DNA of 4,567 nt from a virus (taxonomy: Duplodnaviria > Heunggongvirae > Uroviricota > Caudoviricetes): IMG/VR virus record IMGVR_UViG_2671180473_000005. One strand, 5' to 3'. This document shows, piece by piece, positions 994 to 4,567 of the stretch; positions within the stretch are counted from its first letter, which is position 1, and each line of letters begins with the position of its first letter. A program made the translations under genes and the position numbers. A model generated the notes under the pieces. The model worked only from the letters and a program-made list of their open reading frames with translations. It had not been told where the DNA came from and ran no database searches.

Positions 994-1149
994 TTACTTC
1001 CTGGATTCGTAGTCTACGAAGACAGCGACCTCCGTCTGGCCGGTTCGGATTCGTACCTCACAGAGGTCTTTCCTCGTTACCAGTGCCGTCACTATGACGG
1101 TTAAACAGATGACGATCAGGGCGATTAACATCGCCTTTTGCTGCTTCAT
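994..1149 (-). CDS. hok: Hok family type I toxin (membrane-depolarising host-killing peptide), 51 aa
   Basis: ATG at 1147-1149, TAA at 994-996. Translation MKQQKAMLIALIVICLTVIVTALVTRKDLCEVRIRTGQTEVAVFVDYESRK has the Hok transmembrane helix and conserved LCE..R..G..EVA motif and closely matches HokD/HokC-type chromosomal Hok as recalled. An alternative frame is open from the gap edge to 1058, consistent with an overlapping mok-like frame. Confidence 0.9.
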   Translation of the reverse strand: MKQQKAMLIALIVICLTVIVTALVTRKDLCEVRIRTGQTEVAVFVDYESRK

Positions 1150-1159
1150 AGCCTGCTTC

Positions 1160-1389
1160 NNNNNNNNNNNNNNNNNNNNNNNNNNNNNNNNNNNNNNNNN
1201 NNNNNNNNNNNNNNNNNNNNNNNNNNNNNNNNNNNNNNNNNNNNNNNNNNNNNNNNNNNNNNNNNNNNNNNNNNNNNNNNNNNNNNNNNNNNNNNNNNNN
1301 NNNNNNNNNNNNNNNNNNNNNNNNNNNNNNNNNNNNNNNNNNNNNNNNNNNNNNNNNNNNNNNNNNNNNNNNNNNNNNNNNNNNNNNNN
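1160..1389. other. 230-nt run of N (assembly gap or masked sequence)
   Basis: Directly visible. 230 is not a multiple of 3, so any ORF drawn across it is artefactual. Confidence 1.
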
Positions 1390-2034
1390 GATAAGAGGGC
1401 GTCCCTGAGATTTGCGGTGTAGATTGGTATCGCGCAGAGAATACACACAGCCACAATATTCCTGCTGATAGAATTTTTCGCGCTTGCTGATTTCAATCAT
1501 ACGGGACGAGCCGCCCTGCTTGCGCCAGTTATAATCCCAGTACACCATGCCCGGATAATGCGCGACGGCTCGCCGCCCACAGTCGTTAACCTGCTGCATA
1601 TTTTTCCAGCGTGAAATGCCCAGTGAACTGCTGATCACACTGAAACCATTTTCAGCGGCGTACAGCGCTGTCCGCTCAAAACGCATGTCAAAACACATGG
1701 TGCAACGGATCCCTCGTTCGGGCTCCCATTCCATTCCTTTGGCTCGTTCAAACCAGTTGTCTGTGTCGTAATCAGCATCAATAAACGGCACGCCGTGTTG
1801 TTCAGCAAAGCGAATATTCTCATCCTTACGAATTAAATACTCTTTCTGAGGATGAATGTTCGGGTTGTAGAAAAAGATGGTGTAGTCGATTCCCGAGGCC
1901 TGAAGCGCCTCCATCACCTCACCGGAACATGGAGCACAGCAAGAGTGCAGTAGTAGTTTGTTTGCCCCGTTTGGGAGCTCCAATTTGGGCCGTTTGAAAT
2001 CAGCAACTGTCATAAATATGTTTATTGGGGTCAT
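1390..2034 (-). CDS. queH: QueH/DUF208 family epoxyqueuosine reductase-like protein; 3' end lost in the N gap
   Basis: 215 codons visible from ATG 2032-2034 (alternative ATG 2011-2013) to the gap edge. Carries the motifs recalled for the family: [37 protein letters not shown]. About 25 residues precede the LLLH motif, and neither ATG has a recognisable Shine-Dalgarno. Confidence 0.8.
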
Positions 2035-2181
2035 AAAAATATCAAAGAGTGTAGCATTAGAACGGGGCTATCGGAAACAGATGTGTGACTGCTCCCCGCC
2101 CTTTCGGGTGGTCTCCTGATGATTTGAGGGTGCAGAAATCCCTCCGGTTAAGGATTAAATTTTTAACAGTGCTAAATTTAA

Positions 2182-2538
2182 TTATTCAGTTCTGGATTTT
2201 GTCGCCCTGCGTATCCGCGCTTTCGCGTTACGCTCAATCTGTATCAGCTTTTCTATATTTCTCCGCCTTTCCTGTTCCTCCTGGCGCAATAGCCTTACAT
2301 CATCTGCCAGTCTGGTTTCTCTTTTTGCCACAGAGAGCATCCAGTCAAACGGCTCCACAACCGCACCGCAGATTTTACAGCGGACCTGACGCTCTTTTTC
2401 GTCAACCCGTACAGAGGCGTGATGGCAATATGGTCTTTCCGATGGCTCATAAAGAAAATTAACCTGATTACGAGGGTCATCCTCTTTTACCGGAAATAAA
2501 ACGATATTGCTTAACTCATCTTCTGGTTTTATTTCCAT
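2182..2538 (-). CDS. small Cys/His-motif (zinc-ribbon-like) protein with a basic coiled-coil-like C-terminus, 118 aa
   Basis: ATG at 2536-2538 is preceded by AAGGAGAGGAG. The longer track ORF starts at ATG 2593-2595, which directly abuts the upstream TGA (TGAATG), so that start is possible too. Motif PYCHHASVRVDEKERQVRCKICG, then an R/E/Q-rich tail. No family recognised. Confidence 0.55.
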   Translation of the reverse strand: MEIKPEDELSNIVLFPVKEDDPRNQVNFLYEPSERPYCHHASVRVDEKERQVRCKICGAVVEPFDWMLSVAKRETRLADDVRLLRQEEQERRRNIEKLIQIERNAKARIRRATKSRTE

Positions 2539-2595
2539 GCTCCTCTCCTTTGATGCGAATGCCAGCGGTAATTGAAGCCTGATAGCTAATTTCAT

Positions 2596-3018
2596 TCACA
2601 GTATCGCCTCCTGAAAATTACCCTGATAGAAAGCCAGTACACGCTGCATAGCTTCGCTCTTCCGGCACTCGCGACAGATTATATTCAGGCGCCTGTCGTA
2701 GCGGCGTATTTCTCCGTCAGGTAATGACCAGATAAGGTCCGGATCAACAACAACCGGTTTCCTCACCTTTACTCTCGAGAGTTTTTTGCGGGCGCTTTGC
2801 CAGTCCTTGCGAGCCTGTTCAGACGGGAATAAGCCGTAGCCAGAATTATATACATCACCACTTGCGACCAGTTCTATGCATAAGCGACCGACAGACGCAC
2901 GACTGATACCTGTTTCATCTGACAACTGCCGAATCGTGACCCGACCGTCCTGATGCACGAGTTCCACAATTCGCGTCTTCAGTTCTTCCCGCTGTTCGGG
3001 AGTAAAAGGTTTCGCCAT
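2596..3018 (-). CDS. winged-helix/HTH DNA-binding protein of the phage replication operon, 140 aa
   Basis: ATG at 3016-3018 with an AGGAGG Shine-Dalgarno 5-6 nt upstream, 14 nt after the DnaC-like stop. N-terminal segment ...VTIRQLSDETGISRASVGRLCIELVASGDVY looks like a helix-turn-helix. Exact family uncertain. Confidence 0.7.
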   Translation of the reverse strand: MAKPFTPEQREELKTRIVELVHQDGRVTIRQLSDETGISRASVGRLCIELVASGDVYNSGYGLFPSEQARKDWQSARKKLSRVKVRKPVVVDPDLIWSLPDGEIRRYDRRLNIICRECRKSEAMQRVLAFYQGNFQEAIL

Positions 3019-3032
3019 AAATCCTCCTGAAA

Positions 3033-3779
3033 CTACTTAACAACCCTCGAATGGCTAACATTCGGACGCCAGCTCTCCCAGTTAAAATTCACCCAGCGCC
3101 CGCCGTTCATGACCATGCGATCCATCACCCGCTCGCCGAGCAATGTTTTCATCACCTCATAGTTCAGGTTTGTCAGCATCCCCACGCTGCGCATCGACGC
3201 TGTCCGGCGATCAACAATCTGGTGCAGCACCACCTGCTCGTTTTTCGTCTCGCGCTGAATGCCAATTTCATCAAGAACCAGCAGATCCACTTCGCACAGC
3301 TCCCGCAAAAATTTTTCGCCTGACTGCCCGTCGTCATAGCTGGCGTGCAGGGCGCTCATAACATCAGCCACGGTAACCACAATCACTGTCTGACCGTCTT
3401 TCAGCAGGCGATTCCCGATAGCTGCCGCTAAGTGATTCTTCCCGGTACCAGGTTTTCCGCTGAACGCAAAATTTGTACACCCGGTCATCAGTTCATCGGC
3501 GATGGATTTCGCCTGGCTTAACGCGTATCGCTGGCCGTCGTTCTGCACCTGGTAATTCGCAAACGAGCATTTACGGTGCAACGGCTGGATGCCTGAGCGA
3601 TTCAGAATTTTTTCCACCCGCAACTGGCGATTCAGGCGGTTGATCTCCTCGCTACGTTTCTGGCCTTCAGCAAGTTGCCACTCGCGCCACTCCGCTACCG
3701 TTCTGAATGGGGCGGTTACATGTGGCGGGGTCAGTCGGCGGATGCGTTCCAGAACGCCGCCTGTCGCAATATTTTTCAT
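3033..3779 (-). CDS. DnaC-family AAA+ helicase loader (phage replication protein, IstB-like ATPase), 248 aa
   Basis: Walker A FSGKPGTGKNHLAAAIG and Walker B DLLVLDEIG are present. ATG at 3777-3779 lies 6 nt downstream of the stop of the initiator C-terminal frame, as expected for a replication operon. Confidence 0.9.
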   Translation of the reverse strand: MKNIATGGVLERIRRLTPPHVTAPFRTVAEWREWQLAEGQKRSEEINRLNRQLRVEKILNRSGIQPLHRKCSFANYQVQNDGQRYALSQAKSIADELMTGCTNFAFSGKPGTGKNHLAAAIGNRLLKDGQTVIVVTVADVMSALHASYDDGQSGEKFLRELCEVDLLVLDEIGIQRETKNEQVVLHQIVDRRTASMRSVGMLTNLNYEVMKTLLGERVMDRMVMNGGRWVNFNWESWRPNVSHSRVVK

Positions 3780-4133
3780 GGTCCGTTACCCCCTGAAGCC
3801 TGGCGGGATCGCACTGTCCGGCAACGAGACGGTGTTAACCTGTCGGAGCAACGTCTCAGGCCGAACACCTTTCGGCGCGAACAGGCCCTGGTATTCATTG
3901 GCGATGCTGTGTCGAATCACCTGCTCAGGTGTAAAACCCTGCTGACGGAATTTTTCCAGTTCCCGTATCGCCCCGTTAGCGCCCTGCTCCGTTCGAATCG
4001 GTTTTCGCAATGCCTGTCTGAACCGGACCCACTCATGCCAGAGTGTTTCCGGCAACCAATCGGGCAGCTCAATAGCCTCCGGCTCGAATTTTTTAGACGC
4101 TCGTTTTTGGCGAGGGGGAGATCAGTATTTAGA

Positions 4134-4154
4134 TCTTCCTCTTCCTCTTCCTCT
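4134..4154. repeat. hexanucleotide tandem repeat (TCTTCC) x3.5
   Basis: tcttcc tcttcc tcttcc tct on the plus strand. On the minus strand it encodes EEEEEE in the linker frame (RGRGRG and RKRKRK in the other two). Confidence 0.9.
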
Positions 4155-4246
4155 GGTAACGCTTTTTGATCCGTTTGTGTAACGCTGGCAGCGTTACCTT
4201 TTCGTTTCAGTTCGCGTATTTTTGTTACTCGCTCGTTTGTAACCGC
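4155..4246. repeat. cluster of dyad-symmetric TGTAACGC/GCGTTACA repeats, candidate replication-origin iterons
   Basis: Perfect 19-bp palindrome GTAACGCTG-G-CAGCGTTAC at 4179-4197; further half-site copies at 4155-4162 (ggtaacgc), 4224-4228 (gttac) and 4238-4246 (tgtaaccgc); motif cgtttgt(g)taac recurs at 4172-4183 and 4234-4243. Confidence 0.4.
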
Positions 4247-4386
4247 CCGTTTTTTTTAGAGCTTTTTCCGTTATGACGTTCAAAGTTAGGTAGAGAAAGC
4301 CCTCCGTCATTTTCGACCAGCCATCCAACCTGAATTAACGCATCAGCAAAACCAGACATAAAAGTGATGCGATCTATTGCACTTTT

Positions 4387-4407
4387 TGTAACGCCGCGAG
4401 CGTTACA
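4387..4407. repeat. second palindromic copy of the TGTAACGC half-site
   Basis: tgtaacgc (4387-4394), 5-nt spacer cgcga, gcgttaca (4400-4407): perfect 8-bp arms, inside the initiator N-terminal coding region. Confidence 0.4.
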
Positions 4408-4462
4408 ATCTGCATTACCGTCTATCATTTGTTGATCCGCCCATGCCCAGAAGCGAATAACC

Positions 4463-4567
4463 TGAGGTAGCCTGAGTTTAACGGACACTCCTTCCTGAAA
4501 TAGAATGGCATCAGAAGGAGCTAATAATGAGCAGAAAAACCCAACGTTACTCTAAAGAGTTCAAAGC
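4463..4567 (+). mobile_element. left end of an IS3-family insertion sequence (IS600-like), partial
   Basis: Sequence begins TGAGGTAGCCTGAGTTTAACGGACAC at about 4463 (IS3-family ends typically start TGA). About 64 nt later a GAAGGAG Shine-Dalgarno and ATG start an OrfA-like gene. The exact boundary is not established. Confidence 0.5.
4527..4567 (+). CDS. IS3-family transposase OrfA, N-terminus only (runs off the window)
   Basis: ATG 4527-4529 with AGGAG 6 nt upstream; translation MSRKTQRYSKEFKA matches the N-terminus of IS600-type OrfA as recalled. Confidence 0.6.
   Translation, partial: MSRKTQRYSKEFK

What the first reader, a model, noticed from the sequence alone, without database searches (positions are those of the whole stretch)
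1390..2034. QueH (DUF208) epoxyqueuosine-reductase homolog carried as prophage cargo next to hok
The Cys motifs recalled for QueH (CCAPC, RCxxCF, YCGC) are all present, so the protein looks catalytically intact. Escherichia-type hosts are understood to make queuosine with QueG rather than QueH, so a phage-borne QueH between the replication module and a Hok toxin is unexpected. It could alter host tRNA queuosine status or act in a phage 7-deazaguanine pathway. It also has a roughly 25-residue N-terminal extension and no Shine-Dalgarno at either candidate ATG, so a leaderless or otherwise unusual start is possible.
Basis: partly seen in the sequence, partly recalled or inferred. Interest (0 to 1): 0.65.

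Follow-up and report, generated by a model that had tools for sequence, protein, structure and literature searches.

The report
Prophage-borne B12-independent queuosine reductase QueH
A defective lambda-like prophage carries an intact, strongly conserved copy of QueH, the vitamin-B12-independent enzyme for the last step of queuosine tRNA modification; the gene is already named in databases and sits in about 18% of complete E. coli genomes, so it is real but ordinary.

Summary
Window 1390-2013 (minus strand) encodes 208 of the 221 residues of a true QueH. It matches Pfam PF02677 at E=1.6e-65 over the full model. All seven family-invariant cysteines are present. The AlphaFold model superposes on T. 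maritima QueH 7LC5 at 1.2 A.

- The real start is the ATG at 2013, not 2034.
- The N-terminal extension and the lack of a Shine-Dalgarno are shared with chromosomal orthologues that are 80-88% identical (Erwinia, Pantoea, Providencia).
- CCAPC is the family consensus; the CCAPD of T. maritima is the exception.

RefSeq already names this protein QueH. It occurs in 995 of 5426 complete E. coli genomes, and all 5426 also carry queG. It always sits just after the DUF977 gene of Rac/Qin-type prophages and is usually followed by hok. It is under strong purifying selection (dN/dS about 0.03) and moves as a one-gene cassette with promoter-like extended -10 motifs.

The related prophage has no dpdA, tgt or queC/D/E, so a DNA 7-deazaguanine role is unsupported. 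The most likely role is a cobalamin-independent backup for QueG in lysogens. This is inferred, not shown.

The parts
1390..2013 (-). queH coding sequence, visible part (codons 1-208 of 221). The start ATG is at 2011-2013. The last 13 codons and the stop lie under the N-mask.
   Evidence: Pfam PF02677 E=1.6e-65. PGAP start and 221-aa product in the 99.9%-identical record NZ_CP065613.1. dN/dS 0.02-0.05 between alleles. AlphaFold pLDDT 96.3; Foldseek to 7LC5 gives TM 0.92 and rmsd 1.2 A.
1927..1941 (-). CCAPC motif (Cys25, Cys26, Cys29). It corresponds to Cys9, Cys10 and Asp13 of T. maritima QueH.
   Evidence: Pairwise alignment to 7LC5. These columns are invariant in 39 diverse QueH sequences. 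CCAPC occurs in 94 and CCAPD in 3 of the 107 motif-bearing family representatives.
1693..1704 (-). CTMC motif (Cys104, Cys107). It corresponds to Cys87 and Cys90 of T. maritima QueH.
   Evidence: invariant columns.
1447..1455 (-). CGC motif (Cys187, Gly188, Cys189). It corresponds to Cys169 and Cys171 of T. maritima QueH.
   Evidence: invariant columns.
2032..2034 (-). Upstream in-frame ATG, probably not the start codon.
   Evidence: Found only in E. coli and E. albertii alleles. Orthologues start at the position equivalent to 2013.
2036..2056 (-). Two tandem extended -10-like motifs: TGCTACACT (2056..2048) and TGATATTTT (2044..2036). This is the predicted promoter of queH itself.
   Evidence: TGCTACA(C/A)T is conserved upstream of the mobile copies in Escherichia, Scandinavium, Enterobacter and Kluyvera, and of the chromosomal copies in Erwinia and Symbiopectobacterium. 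A TGnTAnnnT motif lies 23-51 nt upstream of the ATG (22 of them at 31-40 nt) in 24 of 80 non-E. coli orthologues, against 0 of 80 in an in-gene control. This is a prediction only. The simple two-hexamer scan found no minus-strand promoter.
2014..2084 (-). Upstream part of the queH cassette: a short, A/U-rich leader without a Shine-Dalgarno, plus the promoter region.
   Evidence: Most E. coli copies match the query only up to window 2084. Between Enterobacteriaceae genera, homology is limited to the gene plus about 50 nt on each side. The start region folds weakly, at -5.5 kcal/mol with z=-0.44.
1160..1389 (.). Masked stretch. By comparison it holds the queH C-terminal tail and stop, plus the hok mRNA leader and sok antisense region.
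   Evidence: In L001 the queH stop is at the position equivalent to about window 1348, and Rfam sok RF01794 matches L001 5726-5901 at 117 bits. The mask length does not equal any natural spacing.
994..1149 (-). hok (HokD-type) toxin gene, the usual downstream neighbour of queH.
   Evidence: Pfam HOK_GEF E=4.3e-23. Hok lies within 0.9 kb downstream in 60 of 76 informative IMG/VR loci.
2596..3018 (-). DUF977 / Ren-like gene. It marks the upstream edge of the cargo slot that holds queH.
   Evidence: Pfam DUF977 E=1.1e-33 and phrog_142. It lies upstream of queH. Either DUF977 or the Zn-ribbon gene lies upstream in 74 of 80 IMG/VR loci.

Best explanation
The gene encodes a functional QueH. QueH is the cobalamin-independent iron-sulfur enzyme that reduces epoxyqueuosine (oQ) to queuosine (Q) at position 34 of tRNA-Asp, -Asn, -His and -Tyr.

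The gene is a self-contained one-gene cassette (own extended -10 promoter, short A/U-rich leader without a Shine-Dalgarno, coding sequence). It sits in the variable cargo slot just after the replication and DUF977 genes of Rac/Qin-type lambdoid prophages.

E. coli always has QueG, which needs cobalamin, and E. coli cannot make cobalamin de novo. The most likely benefit is therefore that a lysogen can finish Q synthesis when B12 is scarce. That would make the cassette a lysogenic-conversion ('moron') gene kept by selection on the host, even in prophages that are decaying, as here.

Shown: family membership, conserved metal-ligand cysteines, the fold, purifying selection, prevalence, a conserved position, and co-occurrence with queG.

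Inferred: enzymatic activity in E. coli, expression from its own promoter in the lysogen, and the B12-independence benefit.
For: Identity:
- Pfam QueH, 220.9 bits, full-length match.
- 7LC5 at E=4.5e-22.
- All 15 invariant columns of a 39-member family alignment are present, including 7 cysteines.
- AlphaFold pLDDT 96.3. Foldseek to 7LC5 gives TM 0.92 (normalised by target length) and rmsd 1.2 A.
- 80-88% identity to chromosomal QueH in housekeeping contexts in Erwinia, Pantoea and Providencia.

Selection:
- dN/dS is 0.02-0.05 between prophage alleles, with dS up to 0.38 within E. coli.
- 79 of 79 complete IMG/VR copies have an intact 221-aa ORF.
- The gene is intact here although the prophage's replication gene is frameshifted and cut by an IS element.

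Cassette and promoter:
- Homology between genera stops about 50 nt either side of the gene.
- The TGCTACA(C/A)T motif is conserved.

Host background:
- queG is in 5426 of 5426 complete E. coli genomes and queH in 995.
- The QueG step depends on cobalamin (PMC4646009, citing Frey 1988).
- QueH is the cobalamin-independent alternative (PMC6461909).
- A precedent exists for keeping both enzymes with different cofactors: S. aureus (PMC13443448).
Against: - No activity, expression or phenotype data exist for this allele. I found no paper on prophage QueH in E. coli.
- The promoter is only a motif match. The standard two-hexamer scan found none on the minus strand, and no terminator was found.
- The gene also lies inside the early rightward operon, so it could be expressed mainly on induction.
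- The residue aligned with Asp13 of the solved enzyme is Cys. This is the family consensus, but no Cys-type QueH structure is in the PDB copy searched.
- hok/sok next door could help keep the region without any benefit from queH.
- The C-terminal 13 codons are masked in this window.
Confidence: 0.6

Rival explanations
1. QueH serves the phage rather than the lysogen. It would be transcribed with the early rightward operon after induction and would complete Q34 on host tRNAs, so that phage NAU/NAC codons are decoded well during lytic growth. It would work alongside the tRNA genes the same prophages carry.
For: The gene lies in the early-right (nin-like) region, between the replication genes and the Q-like antiterminator. 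The related prophage also carries tRNA-Ile, -Arg, -Thr and -Gly genes upstream of the lysis genes. One isolated phage, HannyBb, carries the gene.
Against: The gene stays intact in this clearly defective prophage. It travels with its own promoter-like motif, including into non-phage sites in Enterobacter and Kluyvera. tRNA turnover is slow compared with a lytic cycle (general knowledge). No codon-usage test was done.
Confidence: 0.15
2. queH is a neutral passenger. It would be kept only because it sits next to the hok/sok addiction module in a recombination-prone cargo slot, and would no longer matter to host or phage.
For: Hok is the downstream neighbour in 60 of 76 loci. The host already has queG. 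A queG deletion has no growth phenotype in one tested laboratory condition (PMC11841063).
Against: dN/dS is about 0.03 with many synonymous differences. All 79 complete copies are intact. The gene also occurs without hok, next to an NgoMIV-type restriction-modification system or a DUF1971 gene.
Confidence: 0.1
3. The enzyme works in a phage 7-deazaguanine DNA-modification pathway, or on some substrate other than oQ-tRNA.
For: Phages are known to modify their DNA with 7-deazaguanines made from preQ0 (mentioned in PMC5372724). The N- and C-terminal tails differ from those of the solved T. maritima enzyme.
Against: The whole related prophage (49 kb) has no DpdA/TGT-like transglycosylase and no queC, queD, queE or folE. 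PADLOC gives no hit. The protein is 80-88% identical to chromosomal housekeeping QueH, tails included. oQ is made only on tRNA, by QueA (established pathway knowledge).
Confidence: 0.03

Closest known systems
Chromosomal QueH of other Enterobacterales (for example Erwinia sp. P7711 P0004, Pantoea P0117, Providencia P0041)
   Same: 80-88% amino-acid identity and the same length (214-222 aa). They share the N-terminal F-K/x-R-P-x-L-x-L-P extension, the basic C-terminal tail and the leader without a Shine-Dalgarno. Several share the TGCTACA(C/A)T motif upstream.
   Different: Those copies sit in stable housekeeping neighbourhoods: purL-glrK in Erwinia, smpB/mgtA in Pantoea, tmcA/purC in Providencia. 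This copy sits in a lambdoid prophage cargo slot. Synonymous sites are saturated between the two groups, so the capture was not recent.
Thermotoga maritima QueH (PDB 7LC5, 7LC7, 9DEU), the structurally characterised epoxyqueuosine reductase
   Same: Same fold (TM 0.92, rmsd 1.2 A). The six cysteines C9, C10, C87, C90, C169 and C171 are all conserved.
   Different: Only 31% identical. Asp13 (CCAPD) is Cys29 here (CCAPC), which is the family majority. This protein has about 16 extra N-terminal residues and about 25 extra C-terminal residues.
QueG (E. coli YjeS), the cobalamin-dependent epoxyqueuosine reductase
   Same: It catalyses the same reaction, oQ-tRNA to Q-tRNA. It is present in every E. 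coli genome that carries this queH.
   Different: It is an unrelated protein family that needs cobalamin plus two [4Fe-4S] clusters (PMC4646009, PMC5175355). QueH needs no cobalamin.
Lambdoid prophage 'morons' / lysogenic-conversion cargo in the nin-region slot (for example hok/sok, restriction-modification systems)
   Same: It is a single gene inserted between conserved phage genes. The same slot holds other cargo in sister prophages. A promoter-like motif travels with the gene.
   Different: No terminator was found and expression in the lysogen has not been shown. The cargo is a tRNA-modification enzyme rather than a surface, toxin or defence protein.
Phage 7-deazaguanine DNA-modification clusters (DpdA with FolE, QueD, QueE, QueC)
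   Same: They draw on the same queuosine/7-deazaguanine metabolism.
   Different: None of the defining genes is present in the related prophage. QueH acts after tRNA insertion, not on preQ0.

Membership tests
QueH (Pfam PF02677 / DUF208) epoxyqueuosine reductase | Significant full-length match to the family profile | tested here: met
   E=1.6e-65, 220.9 bits against a 23.5 cut-off, model positions 1-174 of 175.
QueH (Pfam PF02677 / DUF208) epoxyqueuosine reductase | The six cysteines conserved with the solved enzyme (T. maritima C9, C10, C87, C90, C169, C171) plus the seventh position (Asp13 or Cys). I recall these as the metal ligands; the primary paper could not be read. | tested here: met
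   C25, C26, C104, C107, C187 and C189 are aligned and invariant. Position 29 is Cys, as in 94 of 107 family representatives. T. maritima has Asp there. The ligand roles of individual residues are recalled from Li et al. 2021, which was not readable here.
QueH (Pfam PF02677 / DUF208) epoxyqueuosine reductase | Same three-dimensional fold as the solved QueH | tested here: met
   AlphaFold model with pLDDT 96.3 and pTM 0.91. Foldseek to 7LC5: E=4.1e-15, TM 0.79/0.92 (normalised by query / by target length), rmsd 1.2 A over 179 columns.
QueH (Pfam PF02677 / DUF208) epoxyqueuosine reductase | Converts oQ-tRNA to Q-tRNA without cobalamin | not testable with these tools
   This needs complementation of a queG deletion mutant and LC-MS of tRNA nucleosides.
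Prophage moron / lysogenic-conversion gene | An insertion between conserved phage genes that is absent from otherwise similar phages | tested here: met
   The position after DUF977 is the same in every locus examined. Downstream cargo varies: hok, an NgoMIV-type restriction-modification system, or DUF1971. The flanking 85-nt element occurs in many phages that lack queH.
Prophage moron / lysogenic-conversion gene | Own promoter and terminator, with expression in the lysogen | tested here: inconclusive
   Conserved extended -10-like motifs travel with the gene. No canonical two-hexamer promoter or intrinsic terminator was detected. There are no expression data.
Phage 7-deazaguanine DNA-modification system (Dpd-like) | A DpdA/TGT-family transglycosylase together with preQ0 synthesis genes (folE, queD, queE, queC) | tested here: not met
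   None is annotated in the 49-kb region that covers the near-identical prophage up to its head genes. None is in the window.
Known anti-phage defence systems (PADLOC) | Match to a defence-system protein model | tested here: not met
   No PADLOC family matches QueH at E<=0.01.

The most novel reading that the evidence does not exclude
Lambdoid prophages spread a promoter-equipped queH cassette as a true lysogenic-conversion trait. This would make queuosine completion independent of vitamin B12 in roughly one E. coli strain in five, including ST131, APEC and EAEC 042 lineages. It would shift decoding of Asp, Asn, His and Tyr codons, and hence fitness or virulence, in B12-poor niches. It would also mean that queG-knockout phenotypes established in K-12 do not carry over to these strains.
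Probability: 0.45. Interest if true: 0.5.

Novelty: already known. Interest (0 to 1): 0.28.

Why it matters
Queuosine status affects translation accuracy, stress responses and virulence. In E. coli its last step has been treated as strictly B12-dependent, on the basis of K-12, which is not known to carry queH (EcoCyc lists none; not checked here).

If the prophage copy is active, about 18% of sequenced E. coli have a B12-independent bypass carried by a mobile element. That would be a small but concrete example of a phage-borne tRNA-modification gene acting as host-beneficial cargo.

There is also a practical annotation point. PHROGs lists this family (phrog_3217) as 'unknown function', and its model starts at an internal methionine, which drops the CCAPC motif.

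The finding itself is not new biology. RefSeq already names the protein, and it is a close relative of ordinary chromosomal QueH.

Tried and rejected
- **Primary QueH papers.** I tried to read Zallot 2017 (PMC5495094), Li 2021 (PMC8884141) and Frey 1988 (PMC211089). None is held. The assignment of ligand roles to individual residues therefore rests on my recollection plus the mutant names in the PDB (C9S, D13N).
- **Literature on prophage or phage QueH/DUF208.** Searches found nothing relevant. Most 'DUF208' hits were prefix matches to DUF2080 and the like.
- **First prevalence count.** The count of 2314 of 5426 genomes was inflated by a conserved 85-nt intergenic element. I redid the search with the coding sequence alone and got 995 of 5426.
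- **Closing the masked gap.** No fetched locus has the 230-nt spacing; natural spacings are 259-273 nt. No E. coli complete genome matches the window's right-hand part exactly. The C-terminus is therefore inferred from relatives only.
- **RNA element between queH and the upstream gene.** Rfam found nothing at gathering or E<=1 thresholds. Folding gave z=-1.36, which is not significant.
- **Leaderless mRNA idea.** Rejected. The predicted -10 motifs place the transcript start 16-28 nt before the ATG at 2013.
- **Recent capture from Erwinia-like bacteria.** Rejected. Synonymous sites are saturated.
- **Phage-database hits other than HannyBb.** These are unannotated faecal 'Bacteriophage sp.' fragments or mislabelled records of several hundred kb. 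I did not count them as phages.

Full report
**What is in the window.** All genes lie on the minus strand and form the early-right arm of a lambdoid (Rac/Qin-type) prophage:
- An O/YdaU-like replication initiator, about 3786-4463, with broken reading frames.
- A DnaC-like YdaV ATPase, 3033-3779 (NCBIfam PRK12377, 510 bits).
- A DUF977/Ren-like protein, 2596-3018.
- A small zinc-ribbon protein, 2182-2538.
- The ORF in question, from 2013 or 2034 down into an N-mask at 1160-1389.
- hok, 994-1149.
- A 95-aa protein, 457-744.
- A DUF1367/NinB-like gene, 65-418.

**Checking the observation.** The ORF is a true QueH.
- It matches Pfam PF02677 at E=1.6e-65 and 220.9 bits over model positions 1-174 of 175.
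- It matches the T. maritima QueH chains 7LC5, 9DCO and 9D86 at about E=1e-21 to 1e-22.
- I aligned 39 family members ranging from 88% down to 36% identity. There are 15 invariant columns: C25 C26 C29 N52 R62 E99 R103 C104 C107 R111 K137 Q184 C187 G188 C189, numbered from the ATG at 2013. The window protein has every one of them.
- An AlphaFold model built on that alignment has pLDDT 96.3 and pTM 0.91. Foldseek places it on 7LC5 with TM 0.92 (normalised by target length) and rmsd 1.2 A over 179 columns. The next-best folds are the distant PP-loop/adenine-nucleotide-alpha-hydrolase enzymes such as TtuA and LarE.
- The solved enzyme has CCAPD. Its Asp13 aligns with Cys29 here. Among the 107 motif-bearing sequences of the 150 best 50%-identity representatives, CCAPC occurs 94 times and CCAPD 3 times. 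So Cys is the family norm and T. maritima is the outlier.

**Start codon, N-terminal extension and missing Shine-Dalgarno.**
- In the 99.9%-identical record NZ_CP065613.1, PGAP starts the protein at the ATG equivalent to window 2013. The product (MTVADF...) is 221 aa.
- Orthologues from Scandinavium, Enterobacter, Kluyvera, Symbiopectobacterium, Erwinia, Pantoea and Providencia all start at this position. Only E. coli and E. albertii alleles have the additional in-frame ATG at 2034.
- The residues before the first beta-strand (F-K/E-R-P-K-L-x-L-P-x-G-x-x-K) are conserved across these genera. An L-x-x-P consensus persists down to about 45% identity. The extension is a subfamily trait, not a phage peculiarity.
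- No Shine-Dalgarno precedes either ATG. The same holds for all 9 distinct prophage-type upstream sequences in IMG/VR and for the chromosomal copies in Erwinia, Pantoea and Providencia.
- The leader is A/U-rich and folds weakly, at -5.5 kcal/mol with z=-0.44. This fits Shine-Dalgarno-independent initiation on an open leader, which is my inference.

**A cassette with its own promoter-like motif.**
- About 34 nt upstream of the ATG lies TGCTACACT (window 2056..2048), an extended -10-like motif. A second one, TGATATTTT, follows at 2044..2036.
- TGCTACA(C/A)T recurs at the same distance in the Escherichia, Scandinavium, Enterobacter and Kluyvera copies, and in the chromosomal Erwinia and Symbiopectobacterium copies.
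- A TGnTAnnnT motif lies 23-51 nt upstream of the ATG (22 of them at 31-40 nt) in 24 of 80 non-E. coli orthologues, against 0 of 80 in an in-gene control.
- Between Enterobacteriaceae genera, DNA homology is confined to the gene plus about 50 nt on each side, and the surroundings are unrelated. Examples are a truncated integrase in E. hormaechei and a site next to icd in another Enterobacter.
- Within E. coli, homology typically ends at window 2084.
- This is the footprint of a mobile one-gene cassette. The simple two-hexamer promoter scan and the terminator scan found nothing on this strand, so the promoter remains a prediction.

**Prevalence and context.**
- The coding sequence alone matches 995 of 5426 complete E. 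coli genomes, 985 of them at 80% coverage or more, and nearly always as a single copy. It is annotated 'epoxyqueuosine reductase QueH'. An earlier figure of 2314 genomes was inflated by an unrelated conserved intergenic element.
- Carriers include EAEC 042, APEC O1 and O18, ST131 isolates and an O157:H7 strain.
- queG is present in 5426 of 5426 genomes, so every queH carrier has both enzymes.
- In four further E. coli genomes and in 80 IMG/VR loci the gene always follows the DUF977 gene or the zinc-ribbon gene (74 of 80). It is followed by hok in 60 of 76 informative cases. Otherwise it is followed by an NgoMIV-type restriction-modification pair or a DUF1971 gene.
- At least 188 IMG/VR contigs carry a close relative.
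- Among 50,697 GenBank phage records, only one convincing isolated phage has it: Escherichia phage HannyBb. There it is labelled 'hypothetical protein'.
- PHROGs holds the family as phrog_3217, 'unknown function', with a model that starts at internal Met34.

**Is it functional?**
- Pairwise Nei-Gojobori estimates against other prophage alleles give dN/dS of 0.03-0.05 at dS 0.14-0.38. Against the Scandinavium and Enterobacter copies the values are 0.015-0.023.
- 79 of 79 complete IMG/VR copies have an intact 221-aa ORF.
- The window's prophage is itself decaying. Compared with the near-identical relative, its replication-initiator gene has a 10-nt deletion near 4112 and two extra T near 4250. 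From 4464 onward it is replaced by the end of an IS element annotated 'transposase', which occurs up to 43 times per genome.
- The visible 208 queH codons are nevertheless identical in protein sequence to the intact-prophage allele.

**Origin.** The closest non-mobile relatives are chromosomal QueH genes of Erwiniaceae, Pectobacteriaceae, Yersiniaceae and Morganellaceae, at 80-88% protein identity and in stable housekeeping neighbourhoods. Synonymous sites between these and the prophage allele are saturated. The capture is therefore old, and the high protein identity reflects strong constraint.

**Mechanism proposed.**
- QueG, the E. coli oQ reductase, depends on cobalamin (PMC4646009, citing Frey et al. 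1988; PMC5175355).
- E. coli does not make cobalamin de novo (established knowledge).
- QueH is the cobalamin-independent alternative (PMC6461909; PMC5372724, citing Zallot 2017).
- S. aureus keeps both enzymes and expresses them differently, which has been read as adaptation to cofactor supply (PMC13443448).
- The best-supported reading is therefore that the cassette lets lysogens complete Q34 when B12 is unavailable. I put about 0.85 on 'active oQ reductase' and about 0.55-0.6 on 'B12-independent backup that benefits the lysogen'.

**Alternatives.**
- A role during lytic growth cannot be excluded, because the gene lies inside the early-right operon.
- A neutral-passenger model conflicts with the selection data.
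- A 7-deazaguanine DNA-modification role is not supported. The 49-kb region covering the near-identical prophage, integrated next to ybhA in the gal-mod region, was inspected from the integrase to the head genes. It has no dpdA/tgt, queC, queD, queE or folE. PADLOC finds nothing.

**Limits.**
- The last 13 codons and the stop are under the mask.
- The mask (230 nt) is shorter than every natural spacing seen between the same flanks (259-273 nt where hok lies close by). The exact C-terminus of this particular copy is therefore unknown.
- The primary QueH papers could not be read, and no paper on prophage QueH was found.

**Verdict.** But this is a database-annotated, common and otherwise typical QueH. 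The features flagged as odd are family traits. What remains open, and modestly interesting, is the untested physiological role of a phage-spread, B12-independent bypass in about 18% of E. coli.

Noticed in passing
window 2096-2180 (hairpin CCGCCC-TTTC-GGGTGG at 2096-2111): An 85-nt intergenic element just upstream of the queH cassette is conserved at 89-94% identity in many phages that lack queH: Stx2a-converting phages, ArgO145, Rac-SA53, several vB_EcoS phages and even an Actinobacillus phage. It accounts for the 2314 E. coli genomes matched, against 995 for queH itself. In ArgO145 it lies between two unrelated small genes. Rfam gives no hit and folding is not significant. It may be a module-boundary or recombination linker, or a weak terminator.
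   Followed up: partly
window 1160-1389 (N-mask); L001 5726-5901: In the closest relative, the masked stretch corresponds to the queH tail plus the hok mRNA leader and sok antisense RNA (Rfam RF01794, 117 bits). The mask is 230 nt long, but the same flanks are 259, 268, 269 or 273 nt apart in the 62 fetched loci where hok lies close by (five others have larger insertions, 431-2287 nt).
   Followed up: partly
window 3786-4463: The O/YdaU-like replication-initiator gene is broken. Compared with the near-identical prophage in NZ_CP065613.1, there is a 10-nt deletion of one copy of an AGGGGGA-type direct repeat near 4112, and two extra T in a T-run near 4250. The prophage is therefore defective.
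   Followed up: yes
window 4464-4567: The end of an insertion sequence replaces the 5' part of the replication-initiator gene. It has a terminal repeat beginning TGAGGTAGCC... and a transposase ORF starting MSRKTQRYSKEFK at about 4528. The same 108 nt occur in 3060 of 5426 E. coli genomes, up to 43 copies per genome, and 835 times on plasmids, annotated 'transposase'.
   Followed up: partly
window 4179-4197 and 4388-4406: Two palindromic repeats of the form GTAACGC-N5-GCGTTAC, plus related half-sites near 4156 and 4240, lie inside the initiator gene. They look like origin iterons of the lambda-type 'ori inside O' arrangement.
   Followed up: no
PHROGs phrog_3217 versus window 1390-2013: The phage-protein family that contains this QueH is labelled 'unknown function', and its model begins at internal Met34. 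That start omits the CCAPC motif. Phage HannyBb annotates the gene as 'hypothetical protein'. This is an annotation gap in phage pipelines.
   Followed up: yes
L095 (E. coli O157:H7 Z1723) 1764-3774; L093 3005-3343: The slot immediately downstream of queH is variable. It holds hok/sok in most prophages, but an NgoMIV-family restriction enzyme plus a cytosine methyltransferase in one O157:H7 prophage, and a DUF1971 gene in an O7:H15 strain.
   Followed up: partly
L001 3060-3370, 11675-11863: The near-identical prophage carries a tRNA cluster (Ile, Arg, Thr, Gly) upstream of its lysis genes. It also carries the isrK and C4-antisense RNA elements next to a Rha-family regulator.
   Followed up: no
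L013 3160-3864; L016 1677-3833: In Enterobacter the same queH cassette sits outside prophages. In one case it lies beside a truncated phage-integrase fragment between chromosomal genes. In another it lies just downstream of icd and a chorismate-mutase gene. This suggests repeated independent insertions or prophage remnants.
   Followed up: partly
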